Notes under the pieces: model-generated | What the model saw: the letters and a program-made list of their open reading frames with translations, nothing else | Databases searched by the model: none | What the model was told of the DNA's origin: nothing | From: Novosphingobium sp. | GTDB lineage: Bacteria > Pseudomonadota > Alphaproteobacteria > Sphingomonadales > Sphingomonadaceae | Assembly: GCA_031410255.1 (NCBI GenBank) | Contig: JANNYT010000162.1 | Location: 8,167-72,166, forward strand | Reading direction: 5' to 3' | DNA: 64,000 nucleotides | Shown: one piece after another, positions 34,330 to 42,711 of the stretch | Numbering within the stretch: the first letter of the stretch is position 1 | Layout of the letters: every line of letters starts with the position of its first letter | Program-made: the position numbers and the translations under genes

Positions 34330-34423
34330 CGACCGGGTGAAAGCCGCAGCGCGGCATGCACCAGATCGGGACAGCTACAACTCAGCATGCTTACCAAGCT
34401 TGGAATTACGCGGCTGACGATGC

Positions 34424-34439
34424 TAAATTCCAGGTTAAC
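34424..34439 (+). promoter_or_regulatory. CtrA-like box upstream of the glycine-zipper gene
   Basis: TAAA-TTCCAGG-TTAAC, one mismatch to consensus. Confidence 0.4.
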
Positions 34440-34472
34440 ACCGGATTCGCCCGGTCATTTCAGGGGATTGCC

Positions 34473-35204
34473 ATGAAGTCTCGCCGTGTTTGCCTGCCGC
34501 TGCTGAGCGTGCTCTCATTGGCTTTCGCCGCGCCCGCTCTGGCGCAGTCGATGCCACCGCCCCCACCTATGCCCATGCCGATGCCCGCCGCCGTCGATGC
34601 CGAAGGCCGCACTTACGGCGATGCCGCGCCTGACATGCGCCCTCAATGGCACGGCGAGCCGCAGCGTCAGCCCGGCTACGATCAGGCTGGCTATCAGCAA
34701 GACCGCGCTGGCTGGCTGGCTGAATGCCGCCGCCATCACGGCAATCGCAACACCGTGGGCGGCGCCGTGGTTGGCGCGGTTGTCGGCGGCGTGATCGGCA
34801 ACCGGGTGGCTGGCAGCGGCAACCGCACGGTCGGCACGGTGGTTGGCGCCGCAGCGGGCGGAATCGCGGGCGGAGCAATCGGCAGTGCCGCCGATCGCCG
34901 CAACGCGCGTGACTATTGCGAGGCCTACCTCGACCAATACACCTCCCAGCCGGGTTACGGGCAGCAAGGTTTTGGCCAGCAAGGAGTCAGCTATGGCTAT
35001 GCGCCGATGATGGTGATGGTGCCGGTGATGATGGTGCCGGTCGCCACTGCTCAGCAGCGCGAGTGCAAGGAAACGATCGTCACCGAGGAATGGGTCACCG
35101 TCACCGAAAAGCGCCGCGTGCGGTATATCCCGCCGCGTCATTATCGCGCGGTGCCTGACAAGCGGGTGCGGATCGTGCCGGACAAGCGCGTCCGGGTGAA
35201 CTGA
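34473..35204 (+). CDS. Exported glycine-zipper 2TM protein
   Basis: Signal peptide, Pro/Met-rich linker, GGAVVGAVVGGVIGNRV..GTVVGAAAGGIAGGAIG, basic C-terminal repeat PDKRVR. Confidence 0.85.
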   Translation: MKSRRVCLPLLSVLSLAFAAPALAQSMPPPPPMPMPMPAAVDAEGRTYGDAAPDMRPQWHGEPQRQPGYDQAGYQQDRAGWLAECRRHHGNRNTVGGAVVGAVVGGVIGNRVAGSGNRTVGTVVGAAAGGIAGGAIGSAADRRNARDYCEAYLDQYTSQPGYGQQGFGQQGVSYGYAPMMVMVPVMMVPVATAQQRECKETIVTEEWVTVTEKRRVRYIPPRHYRAVPDKRVRIVPDKRVRVN

Positions 35205-36536: not shown

Positions 36537-39233
36537 TCACGGCCCTTGCGCCATTGGCGGTGCGGTGGGCAGCGCCTCCAGCCGGATCCGGCCGAGCCGC
36601 TGCGAGGAATGGGCGCCATCGATCCGCAGCGGCTGACCCAGCGCGCGCTGGACCCCGATCGCCGTCGCGCTTGGTGCCCCGACCTGCAGCCGGTAATCGC
36701 CATAAGGCACTGTATCAAATAGCAAATAGCCATCGAAATCGCTGACGGTCTGATACAATACGTGCCCCGCTGGATCGAGCAGCTCGATCGTCACTCCGCT
36801 CTGCGGCTGTCCATCCGGACCCAGCAAGGTCGCCTCAACCTCGCCGGTCGGGGATAGCGGCAACAGCACTTTTGCAGCAATCCCCGGCCGCGGCACCACG
36901 ACGATACCCTGGCCCTTTGGCCGCAGCAGCGGATCGGCAAGACTGCCGGCGTCAATCGAGACCAGCACCGGGACATAAGGCGCCAGCCCGTCGATCATAG
37001 TCAGCCCGGCGGCGTTGGTCGGCTTGTCGCTGTGGTGGAACCCAGCTTCGACGGTCACGCCGTCGACGCCCGGCTCGTCCGCCTGGTGCAGCCCGTCGCC
37101 ATTGTCATCGCGGAACACTTCGACCGTGGCCTGCCCTTGCGCCGCCAGCCGGTCACGCGAGAGACGCCAGCCGCCGTCGACGGGATCGGGCCCAAGGCTG
37201 AACGCCAAGGTCAGTCCAAAGGCCAGATTGCCGTGATTATCGACCGAACCTTCGCCGCGCAGCGCAAACCGGGGGAATTGCCGGACATAGCCGAGCGAGA
37301 GCGACTGCCGGTCGGACGGCGCGTCGATATCGTAAGATGCGCGCAGGTTTGAAGTGCGGCCCAGCGGGGCCTCGAGCACCAGTTGCGCCTGCTGGAAGCC
37401 GGGCCGATTGCCATCCAGCCCAAAATGCACCTGCCCGCGCAATTTGACCCGGCCCAGATTGGTGTTGCCGAGCAAGCCGAGCGCATTGCCCTGCACTTCG
37501 ATCGCGGTCAGCGCCGGATCGCCCGACGCGGTGCGGTGGAGCAGCTCGACCGTCAGTGCAGCGCGGCTGACCCGCAGCGAACCGTGGAGCAAGGCTTCGG
37601 TCACGCGCACGCCGCGCCGGCTGAGCGTCTGGCGGTAGCCCGCTTCGACCGGCAGATGCCACCCGCCAAGGTGCACAGTACCGCCCAACCGGAGATTGAC
37701 CTCGCTGCGCTGCTGCGCGCCGACCAGCTCGCTGTCGAAATCGCCCAGCACCCAGGTCACTTCGCCCGAAAAGCGGACCCCGCCCAATTTCCCGATCGTT
37801 TCGCCGCGCAGCGCCGCTCCCGCGCCAAACTGCTGCGCGGCCGAAACTTGCACCAAAGCTGGTCCGACCGAACGCCGCACCACGCCTTCAAGATAGTGAC
37901 GCCGCCGCCCGGTGAACACGCTGCTGTTATACGACAGTCCGATCGTGGTCCGGCGATCGATCCCGCGCTCAACCCCGCCGCCCCAGCGCCAGCCGCTGCC
38001 CGGATCTGGCAGCGAACCCGTCTGGCGCGATTGACCAATCAAATCATGATCTTGCTCGACCGCTCCGACCCAGTACCAGGTCTTCCCGGCCGGCAGATTT
38101 TCGATCCCGACCGGCATGGTCGAGCGTTCGTGGCGGACCTGGCCTTGCGGGCCGTGAAGCACGACATCGAATTCATTATCGCCGAAATCGAGCTCGACAT
38201 CGGCAAATTCGTAACGGCCATCGCCGCGGTCCGATTGATAAGCGCGCAATTCGCCATTGCGGTACAGCTCGACATCCCAGCCTGCGGGCAAAATCCCGCG
38301 AATCGTGGTCAATCCGAACCGCGACGGCAGGTTCAGCGGGCGATTGGTTACAAAGGCCCCGCGCCCATAGGAGCTTTGCGCTGACAGCGCGCTGGAGGGC
38401 GTATCGACATCACCGAACGCGAAACTGGTCGCCTTGAGCGGGCCGAGCAAGCCAGCATCCGGATCGTTGCGATAAAGCCGCAGCCGCAGCGCATCGGGCA
38501 GCGGGCTGTTGCTGCCGGATATCCGGGCGTCATAGCTCAACCCGGCGACTTCACCGCTCGCCAGCGCCTCATACTGGATTTGCCCGCCGCTGCGCTGGTT
38601 CCACTGCGCCTGGACCTGCACATCGACCGATGGAGTGCGCCAGGTCCGATACGGTGCATCGGCATGCGGCATTGCGGCAAGGTCAAATTGGGTATTTTGC
38701 GGCTTGCGAAGTCGCGCGGCGCGACTTTTACGCTCGATCGCTTCAAGAAACGGCAGTTTCTGGTCCGAATCGAGCCGCACCACCAGATTACTGAGATCGG
38801 GCTTGAGCCGCACCCCCAGCCAGCCCGACAAGGCATCGAGGTTCATGCACCAGCCTTCGGACGTGTCGCGGATCGCCCCGTCGGCGATTTCACGCTTTCC
38901 GTTCACGTTTTGTACTGTATTAGAATCGCGGTCGATAGTAAGTTTCTGATCTTCCGCGAACAACCAGCCAGTTGCGCGGCGCGACTTCTTGTCGAGCCGC
39001 ACCGGCAGGTCGAGCGCCTGGATCAAATCGCCGAAATCGACGCAGACCCCCTCGGGCGTCTGATAGCCGCGCAGTGGTTCGCCAATCTTGTATTGGCCCG
39101 ATTGCAATTCGAGCAGCAGCGCATCGTCCTCGCTGGGCGACCAGCTGTCCGCCTGGCTCGGTGCGGCCCACACAGCAAAGGCCGCCGCGATTAACGCAGC
39201 GGCTGTTCTGATCCGGGTCGCTTTGCGCGCCAT
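36537..39233 (-). CDS. Outer-membrane usher-like protein (non-classical chaperone-usher type)
   Basis: Signal peptide; N-terminal periplasmic domain; amphipathic beta-strands; plug-like segment IRGILPAGWDVELYRNGEL..GRYEFADVELDFGDNEFDVVLHGPQGQ; two C-terminal beta-sandwich domains (VFRDDNGDG..., GEVEATL..GDYRLQV). Confidence 0.78.
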   Translation of the reverse strand: MARKATRIRTAAALIAAAFAVWAAPSQADSWSPSEDDALLLELQSGQYKIGEPLRGYQTPEGVCVDFGDLIQALDLPVRLDKKSRRATGWLFAEDQKLTIDRDSNTVQNVNGKREIADGAIRDTSEGWCMNLDALSGWLGVRLKPDLSNLVVRLDSDQKLPFLEAIERKSRAARLRKPQNTQFDLAAMPHADAPYRTWRTPSVDVQVQAQWNQRSGGQIQYEALASGEVAGLSYDARISGSNSPLPDALRLRLYRNDPDAGLLGPLKATSFAFGDVDTPSSALSAQSSYGRGAFVTNRPLNLPSRFGLTTIRGILPAGWDVELYRNGELRAYQSDRGDGRYEFADVELDFGDNEFDVVLHGPQGQVRHERSTMPVGIENLPAGKTWYWVGAVEQDHDLIGQSRQTGSLPDPGSGWRWGGGVERGIDRRTTIGLSYNSSVFTGRRRHYLEGVVRRSVGPALVQVSAAQQFGAGAALRGETIGKLGGVRFSGEVTWVLGDFDSELVGAQQRSEVNLRLGGTVHLGGWHLPVEAGYRQTLSRRGVRVTEALLHGSLRVSRAALTVELLHRTASGDPALTAIEVQGNALGLLGNTNLGRVKLRGQVHFGLDGNRPGFQQAQLVLEAPLGRTSNLRASYDIDAPSDRQSLSLGYVRQFPRFALRGEGSVDNHGNLAFGLTLAFSLGPDPVDGGWRLSRDRLAAQGQATVEVFRDDNGDGLHQADEPGVDGVTVEAGFHHSDKPTNAAGLTMIDGLAPYVPVLVSIDAGSLADPLLRPKGQGIVVVPRPGIAAKVLLPLSPTGEVEATLLGPDGQPQSGVTIELLDPAGHVLYQTVSDFDGYLLFDTVPYGDYRLQVGAPSATAIGVQRALGQPLRIDGAHSSQRLGRIRLEALPTAPPMAQGP

Positions 39234-39273
39234 GACGTCAGTTTGTTTCCTAAGTCTCTGAATTAAAGCATTA

Positions 39274-40104
39274 TCATGGAAAGACCGCGGAGACTTCGGC
39301 GATCAGTGCGCCGCCGTTTTCGGGCAACTCGCGATACTCGATCTTGACCGGTCCTTTGACCTTCGCGAGCTGCTCAGGGCTCAGCGGGATCTGCGCCTTG
39401 CGGTGCGTAATTTCGGGATAGACCGCGATCCCGCGCAACTCGAACAGCACCTCGCCGCGCGCGCTCTTGCCGATCAGCGTGCCATAGACCGAGCGCTGAC
39501 CGGCGCGGGTCAGGTCGAGTTCGATAAAGGCCCCATTCGCGGCCTTGATCAGGTGCGGGCCAGACAGCGTCGCGCTGCCATCGAGTTTGCCGCGGCGGAC
39601 AAAGACCGGAATGGTAATGCCATAGACCGGGATCAGTTTGATCGAGACGCCGGCGGCCGGCTCGGCATTTGCTGCCTCAGGCTTCAGCGCGGCCGGAACG
39701 GCGCGAAAGTTCAGATGCACCCGGTATTCACCGTCCGGCAGTCCAGCGGGTGGACGGATCGAGATCCGCACTGCCTGGGGTTGCCCCGGCAGCAGCGTGA
39801 CCCGGCGCGGGGCGAAGGTGATCATCGCCAGCGCCGCCTGTTCGGCTGGGTTAGCGTTTTCCTCGGTAACTTCGGTGAAATCGCCGTCCTCACCCATCCG
39901 GCGCAATTCGGCCGAGATGCGATAGGTTGCGGGTTCGGTGCCGATATTGCTCAGCACCACTTCGGCGCCGCCGCCATTGTTGATGATGATCCGCGTCGGT
40001 GCGACCAGCAGATCCCCTTGCGCCACTGCTGGGGTACCCAGCGCCGCGAGCGTCAAGACCGCCGCGCCCATGGACCCACGTAATAGCTTGGAAACCAGCA
40101 ACAT
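39274..40104 (-). CDS. Periplasmic pilus-assembly chaperone (PapD-like, Cys-less)
   Basis: Signal peptide, LLVAPTRIII, FAPRRVTLLPGQPQAVRI, LPDGEYRVHLNFRAVP, YGITIPVFVRRG, second Ig-like domain. Confidence 0.85.
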   Translation of the reverse strand: MLLVSKLLRGSMGAAVLTLAALGTPAVAQGDLLVAPTRIIINNGGGAEVVLSNIGTEPATYRISAELRRMGEDGDFTEVTEENANPAEQAALAMITFAPRRVTLLPGQPQAVRISIRPPAGLPDGEYRVHLNFRAVPAALKPEAANAEPAAGVSIKLIPVYGITIPVFVRRGKLDGSATLSGPHLIKAANGAFIELDLTRAGQRSVYGTLIGKSARGEVLFELRGIAVYPEITHRKAQIPLSPEQLAKVKGPVKIEYRELPENGGALIAEVSAVFP

Positions 40105-40178
40105 TTGCTTCCCCTGAACGGTTACCGCAACGCCACCAATGCGCTACGGGAATTCACCTGCTGGGATAAGGAAACAAG

Positions 40179-40195
40179 GTTAATTTCTGGCTAAC
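40179..40195. promoter_or_regulatory. CtrA-like box upstream of the chaperone gene
   Basis: GTTAA-TTTCTGG-CTAAC (minus strand TTAG-N7-TTAAC). Confidence 0.55.
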
Positions 40196-40233
40196 CAAGC
40201 CCGCCTTTGGCGGTGTTTGGGGGATGAGAACGC

Positions 40234-40268
40234 AAAAAGACCGCACCCGCAGTGACGCGGATGCGGCC
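40234..40268 (-). terminator. Rho-independent terminator after the DUF4402 gene
   Basis: Minus strand GGCCGCATCCGC-GTCACT-GCGGGTGCGGTC-TTTTT. Confidence 0.8.
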
Positions 40269-40301
40269 CTCAATTTCAGCCCGGTTCGGGGCTAAAACTG
40301 C

Positions 40302-40820
40302 TTATTGATATTCGACCGAGACGACGAAGCTGCCGCTGTAAACGCCGGCAGCCTGGGCCGAACCAACCGTCAGGCGTCCGCCGACGTTGAAGTTCGCTTT
40401 GCCGGTGGTTGCATTGAGCTGGAAACCGCCAACCGGATCAACGTCAAACGAATCGAGCGTCATGGTGTTGGTCGAGGTGGTCACGCCGCCCAGATACAGG
40501 GTCGATGCAGCGGTAGGCAGGGTCACGATGACCGAAGCACCCTTGCTGCCGGTGACGGTGAAGCCAGCCGGAGCGCGCGTACCGGCCCAGATGACCGAAC
40601 CGGTCTGTGAAACAGTGCTATCCCCGTGAACCGTCACGGTGCCGCCGATGTTCGCAGCAATCTGACCGAAATCGAGCGCCGAGTCGGCGGTCACGGTCAG
40701 CGACTGCAGGATCTCGGCAGTGGCAGTGGCGGTCGCCGTAGCAGCGGCCGAAGCCGCAGTTGCGAACGAGGTGGCGGCGAGAGCAGCAGCAACGGCTGCA
40801 AAGCGGAGCGACTTACGCAT
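40302..40820 (-). CDS. DUF4402 family protein, probable major pilin subunit
   Basis: Sec signal, alternating N-terminal extension ATATATATAEI, LDFG motif, C-terminal AGVYSGSFVVSVEY-Q with penultimate Tyr, no Cys. Confidence 0.78.
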   Translation of the reverse strand: MRKSLRFAAVAAALAATSFATAASAAATATATATAEILQSLTVTADSALDFGQIAANIGGTVTVHGDSTVSQTGSVIWAGTRAPAGFTVTGSKGASVIVTLPTAASTLYLGGVTTSTNTMTLDSFDVDPVGGFQLNATTGKANFNVGGRLTVGSAQAAGVYSGSFVVSVEYQ

Positions 40821-40934
40821 AATTTTCTGGTCCCTACTTTATAAATTAGCCAGCAGCGCAGGCGCTGCACCGAATGGCTGGCATACCCCCCATCCGCAGC
40901 ACCCTAAGTAGGATTACAGTGTTCAGTCTTTGCT

Positions 40935-40981
40935 TTTAGGCTTGGTTAACGCGCCAAGGCCCAATCTTAACTTTTGGCTAG
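40935..40981. promoter_or_regulatory. CtrA-like site(s) upstream of the DUF4402 gene
   Basis: TTTA-GGCTTGG-TTAAC (40935-40950), plus a second TTAAC at 40967 with a weak partner half-site. Confidence 0.45.
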
Positions 40982-40990
40982 TGAAAACCC

Positions 40991-41938
40991 CTAGATGTCA
41001 CCGCCGGTGAGGCGCTGACAGATCAGATCGAGTTGATCGAGTGTACGGTAACGGATCGTAACTGCGCCCGATCGTGGGTCCGCGTCCGTATTGATCCGCA
41101 CTGAAAGGCCTAGGAACTCCTCAAGATGGCTCTGCACCGCGGCTATATCTGCCGAGGCGGCCGGGTCGCGGTCACTGCGCGCGCGGCGCGGCGCGCTAGC
41201 AGGCGCCTGGCCGCGCCGCACCAGCCGCTCAACCTCGCGCACCGATAGTTGGCGGGCGACTGCATCAGCCGCCAGCATTAACGCGTTCTCCGCGCCGATC
41301 AGCGCGCGGGCATGCCCCATCGACAATTTGCCTTCCTCGACCAGCTCGATCACCGGCTCGGGCAAAGCCAGCAAGCGCTGGAGATTGGCAACGTGGCTGC
41401 GGCTCTTGTCGACCAGCCGGGCAATCTCGGCCTGCGTCAGCCCCTCAAGCTCGGACAAACGGTGATAGGCCCGCGCTTCTTCGATCGGGTTGAGATCTTC
41501 GCGCTGCAAATTCTCGATCAGCGCCAGAGCAGTGACTTCGCGCTCGCTCAAATTGCGGATTATCGCAGGGATTTCATGGAGTTGAGCGCGCTGCGCGGCC
41601 CGCCAGCGGCGCTCGCCAGCGACCAATTGCCACTGCCCGGATCCGTGCGGGATGACGATTACAGGCTGAATGACGCCGCGCGCGGCAATCGAAGCAGCCA
41701 GTTCATCGAGCGCGGCTTCATCAAACCGGCGGCGCGGTTGATCGGGGTGCGGGACAATCTGCGCGACGGGTAACATTGCAAGACCCGAGGTGAGCGCGGC
41801 TGTCGTGCCAGAATTCGCCGCCGACGCTGGTGTCACCAATGGTTCTTCGCGCCGCGCATCGCCCAGCAAAGCTCCCAGCCCGCGCCCCAGCGCCGGGCGT
41901 TTGGCGCTGGCAATGCGCACTACCGAATCGTCGCTCAT
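40991..41938 (-). CDS. parB: Chromosome partitioning protein ParB
   Basis: RPALGRGLGALL (ParA-binding peptide), DQPRRRF, GVIQPV, LVAGERRWRAAQ, ALIENLQREDLNPIEEA, HTH RSHVANL. Confidence 0.97.
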   Translation of the reverse strand: MSDDSVVRIASAKRPALGRGLGALLGDARREEPLVTPASAANSGTTAALTSGLAMLPVAQIVPHPDQPRRRFDEAALDELAASIAARGVIQPVIVIPHGSGQWQLVAGERRWRAAQRAQLHEIPAIIRNLSEREVTALALIENLQREDLNPIEEARAYHRLSELEGLTQAEIARLVDKSRSHVANLQRLLALPEPVIELVEEGKLSMGHARALIGAENALMLAADAVARQLSVREVERLVRRGQAPASAPRRARSDRDPAASADIAAVQSHLEEFLGLSVRINTDADPRSGAVTIRYRTLDQLDLICQRLTGGDI

Positions 41939-42711
41939 GCCGCTTTCCTTTGTTCGGGGAGCCTGGTGATTAGTTCGCGCGCCAAGGCCATGTAGGCTCG
42001 ACTGCCCGAGCAAGTGTGATCGTAAACCAATGCTGGCAACCCGTGGCTGGGTGCTTCAGACAGCTTCACATTGCGCGGGATCACTGCATCAAACACCAGC
42101 TTGCCGAGGCACGAGCGGACATCATCGGCCACCTGATCGGTCAGGCGATTGCGGCGATCAAACATGGTTAGGGCAATTCCGACAATACCCAGATCGGGAT
42201 TGAACCGCTGCTGGACCCGCTCAACTGTCTGCAACAATTGCGACAATCCTTCGAGCGCGAAGAATTCACACTGCAGCGGCACCAGCAAGGTATCGGCGGC
42301 GCACAAGGCGTTGAGCGTCAGCAGGCCCAGCGAGGGCGGGCAATCGATAAAGGCGATGTCGTAGCCGTGCTCCCCGGCGAGCGCAGTGCGCATCCGGTCG
42401 GTGCGGTTTTCAACCCCGACGAGCTCAATCTCAGCGCCTGAAAGATCAACCGTGGCCGGAATAATGTCGAGGCCGGGAATGCGGGTTGGCATGGTGCACT
42501 GGGCAAGTGGCAACTGATCGACCAGCAAATCATAAGTCGATGCCGCGCGGTCAGCCGCAGCTATGCCAATCCCTGTGGAGGCGTTGCCCTGCGGATCAAG
42601 ATCGATCAGCAGCACTTTCCAGCCGGTCGCGGCCATCGCGGTGGCGATGTTGATCGCAGTGGTGGTTTTACCCACTCCGCCCTTCTGGTTGGCGATCGCC
42701 ACGCGAATCAC
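41935..42711 (-). CDS. parA: Chromosome partitioning ATPase ParA
   Basis: NQKGGVGKTTT, DLDPQGNAS, IDCPPSLGLLTLNAL, PLQCEFFALEGL, IPRNVKLSEAPS. Confidence 0.97.
   Translation of the reverse strand: MIRVAIANQKGGVGKTTTAINIATAMAATGWKVLLIDLDPQGNASTGIGIAAADRAASTYDLLVDQLPLAQCTMPTRIPGLDIIPATVDLSGAEIELVGVENRTDRMRTALAGEHGYDIAFIDCPPSLGLLTLNALCAADTLLVPLQCEFFALEGLSQLLQTVERVQQRFNPDLGIVGIALTMFDRRNRLTDQVADDVRSCLGKLVFDAVIPRNVKLSEAPSHGLPALVYDHTCSGSRAYMALARELITRLPEQRKAA

What the first reader, a model, noticed from the sequence alone, without database searches (positions are those of the whole stretch)
36537..40990. Minimal non-classical chaperone-usher-like system built on a DUF4402 subunit, with no adhesin gene
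Seen in sequence: three co-oriented exported genes. The 172-aa protein has an alternating N-terminal extension (AATATATATAEI), an LDFG motif and a C-terminal AGVYSGSFVVSVEY with penultimate Tyr. The 276-aa protein has chaperone-type motifs (VAPTRI, LLPGQPQAVRI, DGEYRVHL, ITIPVFV) and no Cys pair. The 898-aa protein has usher-like architecture (beta-strands, plug-like segment, two C-terminal beta-sandwiches). Established: donor-strand complementation, a penultimate aromatic and PapD-fold chaperones define chaperone-usher pili, and Cys-less chaperones mark the non-classical (alternate/archaic) branches. Inference: this assembles a surface fibre from a domain still classed as unknown function. 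The Ala/Thr donor strand is unusual, since bulky hydrophobics are typical. No tip adhesin or minor pilin is in the locus, so it is either a homopolymer fibre or recruits subunits from elsewhere. I know of no functional characterisation of such a system in sphingomonads.
Basis: partly seen in the sequence, partly recalled or inferred. Interest (0 to 1): 0.82.

Follow-up and report, generated by a model that had tools for sequence, protein, structure and literature searches.

The report
Cryptic chaperone-usher pilus system (DUF4402)
Three neighbouring genes in this sphingomonad encode a very diverged chaperone-usher machine that most likely builds a thin surface fibre from DUF4402 proteins. Standard annotation misses it, so it is an unrecognised branch of a well-known pilus pathway, not a new kind of system.

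Summary

**The three genes (minus strand)**
- 172 aa: Pfam DUF4402.
- 276 aa: PapD-like, below Pfam's cut-off.
- 898 aa: no Pfam Usher hit.

**Homology to archaic (Csu/SCPU-type) chaperone-usher parts, by profile-profile comparison**
- Subunit: 94.4%.
- Chaperone: 98.75%.
- Usher: 99.3%.
- Reversed and mismatched controls were clean.

**Structure models**
- The 898-aa model (pLDDT 89) reads as N-domain, 24-strand barrel with a 6-strand plug after strand 6, then two C-domains. Its 18 best PDB matches are all FimD/PapC.
- The subunit model (pLDDT 96) matches usher-pathway pilins, though with weak E-values.
- The subunit's first 16 mature residues lie outside the fold. They are highly conserved, with alternating invariant Ala, as expected of a donor strand.

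- The genome holds two more DUF4402 genes elsewhere.
- DUF4402 and this usher occur in exactly the same 17 of 151 Sphingomonadales genomes.
- One orphan class lacks the donor strand and starts with CxxC. It is a candidate tip subunit.

**Novelty**
- No searchable paper mentions DUF4402.
- This scan has noted DUF4402 usher-like loci before on other DNA (257 notes, at least 184 genomes).

Polymerisation is inferred, not shown.

The parts
40821..40990 (-). Intergenic region between the parB stop and the subunit start; presumed promoter and ribosome-binding site (AGGGA 10-14 nt before the ATG)
   Evidence: Sequence read. No sigma-70 consensus was found, so the promoter is inferred only.
40302..40820 (-). 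Major fibre subunit, 172 aa, Pfam DUF4402; remote homologue of SCPU (Csu-type) pilins
   Evidence: Pfam 89.7 bits. hhalign against 26 SCPU proteins: 94.4%, E=9e-8, residues 23-171. AF2 pLDDT 96.1. 45 of the top 50 PDB fold matches are usher-pathway pilins, probability up to 1.00 but E no better than 6e-3.
40746..40820 (-). Signal peptide of the subunit (residues 1-25, predicted cleavage ASA|AA)
   Evidence: Read from the translation and from alignment A3, where A23 and A25 are invariant in 73 sequences. Inference.
40698..40745 (-). N-terminal extension AATATATATAEILQSL (residues 26-41); candidate donor strand
   Evidence: DSSP assigns no strand to it in the monomer model. It is nevertheless more conserved than the core: mean entropy 1.18 against 1.94 bits. 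Conservation has period 2: A29 0.74, A31 0.82, A33 0.10, A35 0.18, I37 0.98.
40305..40346 (-). C-terminal strand motif G-x-Y-x-G-x-F-x-V-x-V-x-Y-Q with penultimate Tyr
   Evidence: G159, Y161, G163, F165, V167, V169 and Y171 are nearly invariant. It aligns with the SCPU C-terminal strand, and its end aligns with the FimA C-terminus (...VQYQ).
40231..40268 (-). Terminator-like hairpin plus T-run between the subunit and chaperone genes; candidate attenuator setting a subunit excess
   Evidence: (stem 40260-40241, tail TCTTTTTGCG) and the sequence. Its function is inferred by analogy with fim/pap operons (my own knowledge).
39274..40104 (-). Periplasmic PapD-like two-domain chaperone, 276 aa, no Cys
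   Evidence: hhalign against 25 PapD_N chaperones: 98.75%, E=1.5e-16, 212 columns across both domains. Pfam PapD_N scores only 17.5 bits against a cut-off of 23. PapD_N is hit by 15 of 65 family members and fn3_5 by 55 of 65. P99 is invariant and aligns with the conserved Pro of archaic chaperones.
36537..39233 (-). Outer-membrane usher, 898 aa, of a family that Pfam's Usher model does not detect
   Evidence: AF2 pLDDT 89.4, pTM 0.70. The Foldseek top 18 are FimD/PapC, E 2.7e-28 to 1.3e-12. hhalign against 22 PF00577 ushers: 99.3%, E=1.1e-20, 554 columns. Pfam Usher: no hit for the window protein or for 0 of 33 diverse members at E<=1.
38754..39131 (-). Usher N-terminal periplasmic domain (residues ~35-160) with a Cys64/Cys129 pair
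   Evidence: DSSP elements and pLDDT above 90. The Cys pair is conserved in 72/89 and 71/89 sequences.
38346..38642 (-). Barrel strands 1-6 (residues 198-296)
   Evidence: DSSP elements of the model.
38118..38312 (-). Plug domain, six strands (residues 308-372), containing the family's most conserved motif GW[DE][VA]ELYRNG...GRYEF...FG.N.F..V.YGPQGQ
   Evidence: strands. (invariant columns G318, W319, E322, G351, N353, G361, P362, G364). It aligns with the plug region of archaic ushers.
37188..38081 (-). Barrel strands 7-24 (residues 385-682)
   Evidence: 18 long strands in DSSP. The PapC/FimD translocation-domain structures 2vqi, 3fip and 3ohn match with TM (target) 0.48-0.55.
36894..37169 (-). 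C-terminal domain 1 (residues ~689-780) with an EF-hand-like loop D709-x-N-x-D-G-x5-E720 (37074-37109)
   Evidence: Loop conservation: D in 89/89, G in 82/89, E or D in 89/89. Pfam SdrD_B gives two stretches.
36582..36881 (-). C-terminal domain 2 (residues ~785-884), SdrD_B/CarboxypepD_reg-like beta-sandwich; the source of the misleading database names
   Evidence: Pfam SdrD_B 41.1 bits, CarboxypepD_reg 28.3 bits. Source names are 'carboxypeptidase regulatory-like', 'MSCRAMM family' and 'collagen binding'.

Best explanation
The locus is a complete but very diverged chaperone-usher assembly system, most closely related to the archaic (sigma, Csu/SCPU-type) branch.

**Proposed mechanism**
1. All three proteins are exported by Sec.
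2. The 276-aa PapD-like chaperone captures the unfolded DUF4402 subunit in the periplasm. It lends a strand of alternating hydrophobic residues (Y161-I163-I165-V167-V169) to the subunit's incomplete Ig-like fold.
3. The 898-aa usher takes chaperone-subunit complexes at its periplasmic domains.
4. At the usher, the Ala/Thr-rich N-terminal extension of the incoming subunit replaces the chaperone strand of the previous one (donor-strand exchange).
5. The growing fibre leaves through the 24-strand barrel once the plug has moved aside.

**Further inferences**
- A terminator-like hairpin after the subunit gene would give an excess of subunit over chaperone and usher.
- The fibre is probably not a pure homopolymer. 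The genome's two orphan DUF4402 genes are likely extra subunits of the same machine.
- The orphan class that has no N-terminal extension and begins with CxxC is the best candidate for the first-in, distal subunit.

**Shown versus inferred**
- Shown here: homology and fold of the usher, homology of the chaperone and subunit, conserved gene linkage, and co-occurrence.
- Inferred: donor-strand exchange, the roles of the orphans, attenuation, and the existence of a fibre.
For: **Usher**
- AF2 model: pLDDT 89.4. DSSP shows 6 + 18 barrel strands with a 6-strand insert after strand 6, an N-domain and two C-domains.
- The 18 best PDB matches are FimD/PapC, E down to 2.7e-28.
- hhalign against PF00577-positive ushers: 99.3%, E=1.1e-20. 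The reversed control gives 15.7%, E=1.6e-3.

**Chaperone**
- hhalign against PapD_N-positive chaperones: 98.75%, E=1.5e-16, over both domains. Controls give 0.4% or less.
- BLASTP against the genome's own archaic chaperone: E=0.003, in register.

**Subunit**
- hhalign against SCPU: 94.4%, E=9e-8, end to end. Controls give 2% or less.
- The AF2 model (pLDDT 96.1) leaves residues 1-16 outside the sheet.
- Fold matches are almost only usher-pathway pilins, including CsuA/B 7zl4 and Caf1.
- The N-terminal extension is conserved with period 2.

**Linkage**
- The three genes keep their order in 69 of 69 informative Sphingomonadales loci.
- They stay linked in loci only about 30% identical. Some of those carry 7-8 DUF4402 genes before the chaperone and usher (L089, L103).
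- One independent gene call shows DUF4402 - PapD_N (weak) - large protein.

**Co-occurrence**
- The usher family and DUF4402 are found in exactly the same 17 of 151 genomes.
- This genome has one chaperone and one usher of the type, but three DUF4402 genes.

**Other**
- An orphan class without an extension is present in 7 of 7 genomes examined.
- A terminator-like hairpin follows the subunit gene.
Against: - No experiment or expression data exist.
- Curated models do not place the parts in the known families. Pfam Usher gives no hit. PapD_N is below its cut-off. There is no SCPU hit.
- HMM searches of all three families against PDB sequences found no usher-pathway protein.
- The subunit's fold matches have weak E-values (best 6e-3, none at or below 1e-3).
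- The acceptor groove and the fit of the N-terminal extension could not be examined. No coordinates were available and no multimer prediction was possible.
- Four terminator-like sites is what shuffled sequence gives (mean 4.0), so the hairpin's role rests on its position only.
- The link between the orphans and this usher rests on co-occurrence among related genomes, which are not independent.
Confidence: 0.8

Rival explanations
1. Same machine, but a pure homopolymer. Only the operon-encoded DUF4402 is assembled, and the orphan DUF4402 genes do something unrelated.
For: The operon holds one subunit gene in all 69 Sphingomonadales loci. The orphans sit among housekeeping genes with no chaperone or usher beside them.
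Against: DUF4402 genes above cut-off never occur without this usher in 151 genomes, and carriers have 1-5 copies, mostly 3-5. More distant loci place up to 8 DUF4402 genes in the operon itself. The orphans keep the C-terminal strand motif, and one class specifically lacks the N-terminal extension. That pattern is expected of a distal subunit.
Confidence: 0.2
2. Chaperone-usher export of a surface coat, not a pilus. DUF4402 would be secreted through the usher and deposited as a sheet or coat, as reported for Myxococcus spore coat protein U, the founding SCPU member.
For: DUF4402 is a remote homologue of SCPU. There is no two-domain adhesin in the locus.
Against: The conserved amphipathic N-terminal extension and the C-terminal strand motif are the elements that make linear donor-strand polymers. 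The best fold matches are fibre subunits. A coat made of such polymers would still be fibre-based.
Confidence: 0.12
3. The large protein is what databases call it: a carboxypeptidase-regulatory-like or MSCRAMM-type adhesin, or some other outer-membrane transporter. On this view the three genes are not a chaperone-usher system.
For: Names given by sources. The only Pfam hits are SdrD_B and CarboxypepD_reg, in the last ~100 residues.
Against: Those hits cover only the C-terminal domains. The other ~700 residues model as an usher and align with ushers at 99.3%. Other barrel proteins such as LptD and Occ porins score about 20 orders of magnitude worse than FimD/PapC.
Confidence: 0.03

Closest known systems
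Archaic (sigma) chaperone-usher pili: Csu of Acinetobacter baumannii (CsuA/B, CsuC, CsuD, CsuE), and the SCPU/PapD_N/Usher clusters of other Sphingomonadales, including one on contig C144 of this genome
   Same: All three parts are detectably homologous by profile-profile comparison. Gene order is subunit(s)-chaperone-usher. The chaperone has no Cys pair and carries the invariant D1 proline. The subunit has the G-x-Y...V-x-V-x-aromatic C-terminal strand. CsuA/B (7zl4) is among the subunit's fold matches.
   Different: None of the three reaches the curated thresholds of SCPU, PapD_N or Usher. The subunit ends Y-Q, one residue beyond the aromatic, whereas CsuA/B ends at Phe152 (PMC4654587). There is no CsuE-like two-domain tip adhesin and no minor subunits in the operon. 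The chaperone has an invariant Arg in strand A1 that archaic chaperones lack. The usher's C-domains carry an EF-hand-like loop.
Classical type 1 and P pili of E. coli (FimD/PapC ushers, FimC/PapD chaperones, FimA/PapA subunits)
   Same: The usher fold and domain order match: N-domain, barrel with a plug after strand 6, two C-domains. The subunit C-terminus ...Y-Q matches FimA. The chaperone's T37-R38 is in register with FimC T7-R8 (weak alignment).
   Different: No significant sequence similarity to FimC, FimD or FimA taken singly (9%, 0.6% and 1.1%). By transitive alignment the position of FimC Lys112 is Pro166 here, as in archaic chaperones.
Caf1 (F1 capsule) polyadhesin fibres of Yersinia, assembled by Caf1M/Caf1A
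   Same: A one-subunit operon giving a thin linear donor-strand polymer without a separate adhesin. Caf1 fibre structures are among the best fold matches (3dos, 1z9s; TM 0.46-0.47). By my own recollection, not tested here, the Caf1 donor strand is also Thr/Ala-rich.
   Different: Caf1M is a classical FGL chaperone with the Arg20/Lys139 anchor (PMC4654587). No sequence-level relation was detected here.
DUF4402 usher-like loci noted earlier by this scan in Bacteroidota, Balneolales and 'some Proteobacteria' (e1-2299101, e1-2332161, e1-4865991)
   Same: The same Pfam subunit family with a cryptic usher and chaperone. The same conclusion: a diverged Csu-like machine missed by annotation.
   Different: Those loci carry several subunit paralogues and often a T9SS adhesin or motor-like genes. 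The sphingomonad form is pared down to three genes, has its extra subunits dispersed in the genome, and sits in a fixed place beside parAB.

Membership tests
Chaperone-usher pathway (superfamily) | Outer-membrane usher: 24-strand barrel with a plug domain inserted after strand 6, a periplasmic N-domain and two C-terminal domains | tested here: met
   AF2 pLDDT 89.4; DSSP gives 6 + 6 (plug) + 18 strands. The top 18 PDB matches are FimD/PapC, E down to 2.7e-28. hhalign 99.3% against PF00577 ushers.
Chaperone-usher pathway (superfamily) | Periplasmic two-domain PapD-like chaperone with the superfamily's invariant proline in strand D1 (PMC4654587) | tested here: met
   hhalign 98.75%, E=1.5e-16, across both domains. 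P99 is invariant in 65 sequences and aligns with the conserved Pro of the archaic profile.
Chaperone-usher pathway (superfamily) | Subunit with an Ig-like fold lacking its last strand, plus an N-terminal donor strand | tested here: inconclusive
   The fold matches usher-pathway pilins (45 of the top 50, but E no better than 6e-3). The N-terminal 16 residues lie outside the sheet and are conserved with period 2. The groove itself could not be inspected.
Chaperone-usher pathway (superfamily) | Polymerisation by donor-strand exchange at the usher | not testable with these tools
   Needs multimer prediction or experiment.
Archaic (sigma) class, Csu type | Subunits belong to Pfam SCPU (PF05229) | tested here: not met
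   The window subunit hits only DUF4402. The relation to SCPU is visible only by profile-profile comparison (94.4%). One SCPU gene gives a sub-threshold DUF4402 hit (G115).
Archaic (sigma) class, Csu type | Usher recognised by Pfam Usher (PF00577) | tested here: not met
   No hit at E<=1 for the window protein or for 33 diverse members. None appears in the precomputed lists of 240 homologues.
Archaic (sigma) class, Csu type | Two-domain carboxylate anchor: Arg in strand F1 (CsuC Arg89) plus Tyr and Arg in domain 2 (Tyr196, Arg174) (PMC4654587) | tested here: inconclusive
   Invariant R128 and H130 in F1, and R200, Y229 and R235 in domain 2. Y229 aligns with a conserved Tyr of archaic chaperones. 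The exact equivalence to CsuC residues was not established.
Archaic (sigma) class, Csu type | Subunit strand F one residue shorter than in classical subunits, ending at the aromatic residue (PMC4654587) | tested here: not met
   The subunit ends Y171-Q172. The SCPU terminal Phe aligns with Y171.
Classical class (Fim/Pap/Caf) | Chaperone anchors the subunit carboxylate with Arg8 and Lys112 (PapD/FimC numbering) | tested here: inconclusive
   Invariant R38 is in register with FimC R8, but the alignment is weak (9%). The Lys112 position maps to Pro166 by transitive alignment.
Pfam DUF4402 (PF14352) | Score above the gathering threshold over the whole model | tested here: met
   89.7 bits against 25.2; model positions 1-129 of 129.

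The most novel reading that the evidence does not exclude
DUF4402 pili would be a widespread, undescribed clade of the chaperone-usher pathway whose usher lies outside every curated usher model. The family has about 3800 clusters at 50% identity.

In sphingomonads the system would have three distinctive features:
- It is pared down to a three-gene core fixed beside parAB near the replication origin.
- Its minor subunits are dispersed around the chromosome.
- One of them is an extension-less, CxxC-headed subunit that primes or caps the fibre.

The chaperone and subunit mix archaic traits with classical ones: an Arg in strand A1 and a Y-Q C-terminus. They could therefore represent an intermediate in the evolution of the subunit-anchoring mechanism.
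Probability: 0.4. Interest if true: 0.65.

Novelty: new variant of a known kind. Interest (0 to 1): 0.55.

Why it matters
- **Classification.** Chaperone-usher pili are the best-understood bacterial adhesive fibres, and their classification rests on recognisable ushers. Here is a large usher family that the standard usher model never detects and that databases label as carboxypeptidase-like or MSCRAMM proteins. Surveys of pili therefore undercount this pathway in environmental Alphaproteobacteria and beyond.
- **A function for DUF4402.** The finding assigns a testable function to a 'domain of unknown function'. It also offers a minimal three-gene system from non-pathogenic bacteria for studying donor-strand assembly.
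- **Evolution of the pathway.** The chaperone mixes archaic and classical features. That bears on how the two subunit-anchoring mechanisms described in PMC4654587 diverged.
- **Limits.** It is not a new kind of machine, and this scan has met DUF4402 usher-like loci many times already.

Tried and rejected
**Searches that found nothing**
- Single-sequence and profile HMM searches of all three proteins against PDB sequences found no usher-pathway protein.
- NCBIfam gave nothing.
- BLASTP of the 898-aa protein against the genome's own Pfam-positive usher was not significant.
- hhalign of the three families against single E. coli FimC, FimD and FimA sequences was not significant. Those alignments were used only as weak guides to residue register.
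- Paper searches for DUF4402, PF14352 and IPR025514 returned no paper.
- Searches on chaperone-usher plus sphingomonad genus names, and on SCPU or sigma-fimbriae, gave nothing on this family.

**Rejected ideas**
- Lipoprotein signal for the CxxC orphans: the residues before the first Cys do not fit a lipobox (sequences).
- LptD-like or porin-like reading of the barrel.

**Not possible or wasted**
- Structure jobs were capped at two, so the chaperone was not modelled.
- One search scanned only a 60-residue fragment by mistake, and one search was a malformed request.

Full report
**1. The observation**

The window holds three co-oriented minus-strand ORFs at the stated coordinates:
- 40302-40820, 172 aa
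- 39274-40104, 276 aa
- 36537-39233, 898 aa

They lie directly downstream of mnmG-rsmG-parA-parB and upstream of an acyl-CoA dehydrogenase gene. The two smaller proteins have no cysteine. All three begin with signal-peptide-like sequences.

Pfam results:
- The 172-aa protein is DUF4402: 89.7 bits against a cut-off of 25.2.
- The 276-aa protein gets only borderline Ig-like hits: fn3_5 27.8 bits, and PapD_N 17.5 bits, below its cut-off of 23.
- The 898-aa protein gets no Usher hit at all. Its only hits are SdrD_B and CarboxypepD_reg, in the last ~100 residues.

NCBIfam gives nothing. Single-sequence searches against PDB sequences give nothing.

**2. Real, conserved and linked genes**

The large protein belongs to a very large family. 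It has 3794 clusters at 50% identity with E<=1e-3, of which 1530 have E<=1e-30. Most match end to end at 27-33% identity.

Sources name its members 'carboxypeptidase regulatory-like domain-containing', 'MSCRAMM family', 'collagen binding' or 'SPOR domain-containing'. They never call it an usher. None of 33 diverse members hits Pfam Usher even at E<=1.

In 80 genome loci, all Sphingomonadales and 43-75% identical, the order DUF4402 - 276-aa homologue - large protein is kept on one strand. This holds in all 69 loci with enough upstream flank, each with exactly one DUF4402 gene. parB lies immediately upstream in 67 of them.

In 80 metagenome loci chosen around a distant member (28-37% identical to it), 71 still carry a DUF4402 and/or chaperone homologue beside the large gene. 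Several have many DUF4402 genes ahead of the chaperone and usher: seven in L089 and eight in L103.

An independent gene call on another contig reads DUF4402 - PapD_N (weak) - large protein.

**3. What the three proteins are**

This genome carries a separate cluster that Pfam does recognise. It lies on contig C144 and holds six small subunits, a PapD_N chaperone, an Usher and a 362-aa tip protein. Using it as a starting point, I collected Pfam-positive chaperones, ushers and SCPU subunits from 151 Sphingomonadales genomes. I then compared profiles with hhalign.

| Window family | Compared with | Probability | E-value | Extent |
|---|---|---|---|---|
| Chaperone | 25 PapD_N chaperones | 98.75% | 1.5e-16 | 212 columns, both domains |
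| Large protein | 22 ushers | 99.3% | 1.1e-20 | 554 columns, residues 247-855 |
| DUF4402 | 26 SCPU proteins | 94.4% | 9e-8 | residues 23-171, the whole mature protein |

Controls with reversed templates and mismatched pairs gave at most 15.7% and E>=1.6e-3.

**4. Structure models**

*Usher.* With an 89-sequence alignment the 898-aa protein models at mean pLDDT 89.4 and pTM 0.70. The DSSP string gives this layout:

| Element | Residues |
|---|---|
| N-domain | ~35-160 |
| Barrel strands 1-6 (six long strands) | 198-296 |
| Insert of six short strands (plug) | 308-372 |
| Barrel strands 7-24 (eighteen long strands) | 385-682 |
| First beta-sandwich | ~689-780 |
| Second beta-sandwich | ~785-884 |

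That is a 24-strand barrel with a plug between strands 6 and 7, which is the usher layout. Foldseek against the PDB returns FimD and PapC as the 18 best matches. E runs from 2.7e-28 to 1.3e-12, with probability 1.00. Full-length complexes align over 750-960 columns, and the isolated translocation domains give TM 0.48-0.55. LptD and porins follow about twenty orders of magnitude behind.

*Subunit.* The mature subunit (115-sequence alignment) models at pLDDT 96.1 and pTM 0.87. Residues 1-16 (AATATATATAEILQSL) lie outside any sheet. Its PDB matches have weak E-values (best 6e-3). However, 45 of the top 50 are usher-pathway pilins or pilin domains: CfaB, PapG pilin domain, Caf1, FimA/F/G and CsuA/B 7zl4. 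Their probabilities reach 1.00 and TM is 0.4-0.52.

**5. The donor strand**

In 73 orthologues the N-terminal extension is more conserved than the core of the protein.

| Region | Mean column entropy (bits) |
|---|---|
| N-terminal extension | 1.18 |
| Core | 1.94 |
| C-terminal strand | 1.12 |

Conservation in the extension alternates. The well-conserved positions are A29 0.74, A31 0.82, A33 0.10, A35 0.18 and I37 0.98. The positions between them score 0.9-1.8.

A conserved one-sided strand that is not part of the protein's own fold is what a donor strand looks like. This is indirect evidence. I could not inspect a groove, because no coordinates are exposed and no multimer could be predicted.

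EcpB uses Ala111/113/115/Ile117 (PMC4654587). By my own recollection Caf1 has a Thr/Ala-rich donor strand.

**6. Which branch of the pathway**

The system is closest to the archaic class, but it is not a member by the curated criteria.
- SCPU and Usher models are not met.
- PapD_N is met by only 15 of 65 family members, and weakly.

Some details differ from Csu as described in PMC4654587.
- The subunit ends Y-Q, one residue past the aromatic that aligns with the SCPU C-terminal Phe. FimA ends the same way.
- The chaperone has an invariant T37-R38 in strand A1, in register with FimC T7-R8. That alignment is weak. Archaic chaperones have no Arg at that position.
- By transitive alignment the position of FimC Lys112 is Pro166, as in archaic chaperones.
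- Invariant R128/H130 (strand F1) and R200/Y229/R235 (domain 2) could form the non-classical two-domain carboxylate anchor.

Which residues are actually used is open.

**7. Is it really subunit-poor?**

The genome has three DUF4402 genes:
- the one in the window;
- C214:13141-13764 (207 aa);
- C223:2211-2714 (167 aa).

It has only one chaperone and one usher of this type.

In a fixed sample of 151 Sphingomonadales genomes, the usher family is found in 17, including 14 of 37 in the window's own family. DUF4402 above cut-off is found in exactly those same 17. Each carrier has 1-5 copies, mostly 3-5.

Across the phylum the usher family was found in 11 of 401 genomes, including other classes.

A tree of the paralogues separates three groups:
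- the operon subunits;
- orphans that have an N-terminal extension, often as a tandem pair (C214 belongs here);
- a clade present once in each of the 7 genomes examined (C223 belongs here).

Members of the third clade have no Ala/Thr extension. They start with C-x-x-C within four residues of the predicted cleavage site and end in YRGRIPxxVxY.

In usher-pathway fibres the first-assembled, distal subunit is the one that needs no donor strand. I therefore read this class as a candidate tip or initiator subunit encoded away from the operon. This is inference from co-occurrence among related genomes.

**8. Other features**

- A terminator-like hairpin with a T-run lies between the subunit and chaperone genes, at 40231-40268. 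Its position fits the attenuators that give major-subunit excess in fim and pap operons (my own knowledge). As a pattern match it is no more frequent than in shuffled sequence.
- The usher's first C-domain has a conserved EF-hand-like loop, D709-x-N-x-D-G-x5-E720.
- The usher's N-domain has a conserved Cys64/Cys129 pair.

**9. Novelty**

No paper in the searchable library contains DUF4402, PF14352 or IPR025514. Searches on the pathway in sphingomonads and on SCPU or sigma-fimbriae found nothing about this family.

Within this scan the theme is not new. 257 notes in at least 184 genomes mention DUF4402 together with usher and chaperone. Follow-ups in Bacteroidota reached the same reading. I treat those as leads, not as support.

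**10. Verdict**

This is a diverged variant of a known kind of system. It is of moderate interest for three reasons:
- it is systematically mis-annotated;
- it gives DUF4402 a function;
- it shows a dispersed-subunit layout with mixed chaperone features.

Fibre formation itself remains to be shown.

Noticed in passing
Genome contig C223:2211-2714 (+), outside the window; orthologues in L260, L263, L265, L268, L270, L273: A conserved orphan class of DUF4402. After the signal peptide comes C-x-x-C within 1-4 residues of the predicted cleavage site. There is no Ala/Thr N-terminal extension, and the C-terminus reads YRGRIPxxVxY. One copy is present in each of the 7 genomes examined. The role of the CxxC is unexplained.
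   Followed up: partly
Genome contig C214:13141-13764 (-), outside the window: A second orphan DUF4402 (207 aa) with a Val-rich N-terminal extension (GTPVVVTVTARATVVAPLTVV). It sits between a TldD-like gene and an ABC-transporter ATPase gene. In relatives this class is often a tandem pair.
   Followed up: partly
Genome contig C144:17370-25256 (+), outside the window: A separate archaic chaperone-usher cluster that Pfam recognises: six small exported subunits (one with a weak SCPU hit), a PapD_N chaperone (29.2 bits), an Usher (33.1 bits) and a 362-aa tip-like protein.
   Followed up: partly
window 37074-37109 (-), usher residues 709-720: An EF-hand-like loop DDNGDGLHQADE (D-x-N-x-D-G-x5-E) in the usher's first C-terminal domain. 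It is conserved across 89 family members and suggests calcium binding.
   Followed up: partly
window 40991-42711 (-) and loci L006-L085: The order parA-parB-DUF4402-chaperone-usher is kept in 67 Sphingomonadales loci, so the system has a fixed place beside the partition genes. The more distant loci do not share it.
   Followed up: partly
window 39274-40104 (-), chaperone residues 37-38: Invariant Thr-Arg in strand A1, in register with FimC Thr7-Arg8 of the classical carboxylate anchor. Archaic chaperones lack an Arg at this position.
   Followed up: partly
P0458 (locus L276) and long family members: Some members of the usher family are 1000-1480 aa, with N-terminal additions of 150-560 residues. 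One carries a SPOR (peptidoglycan-binding) domain.
   Followed up: no
window 34356-35204 (+): A 282-aa exported protein with a Pro/Met-rich stretch, a long glycine-zipper-like run (GGAVVGAVVGGVIGNRVAGSGNRTVGTVVGAAAGGIAGGAIG) and a repeated C-terminal VPDKRVRIVPDKRVRV. It was not examined.
   Followed up: no
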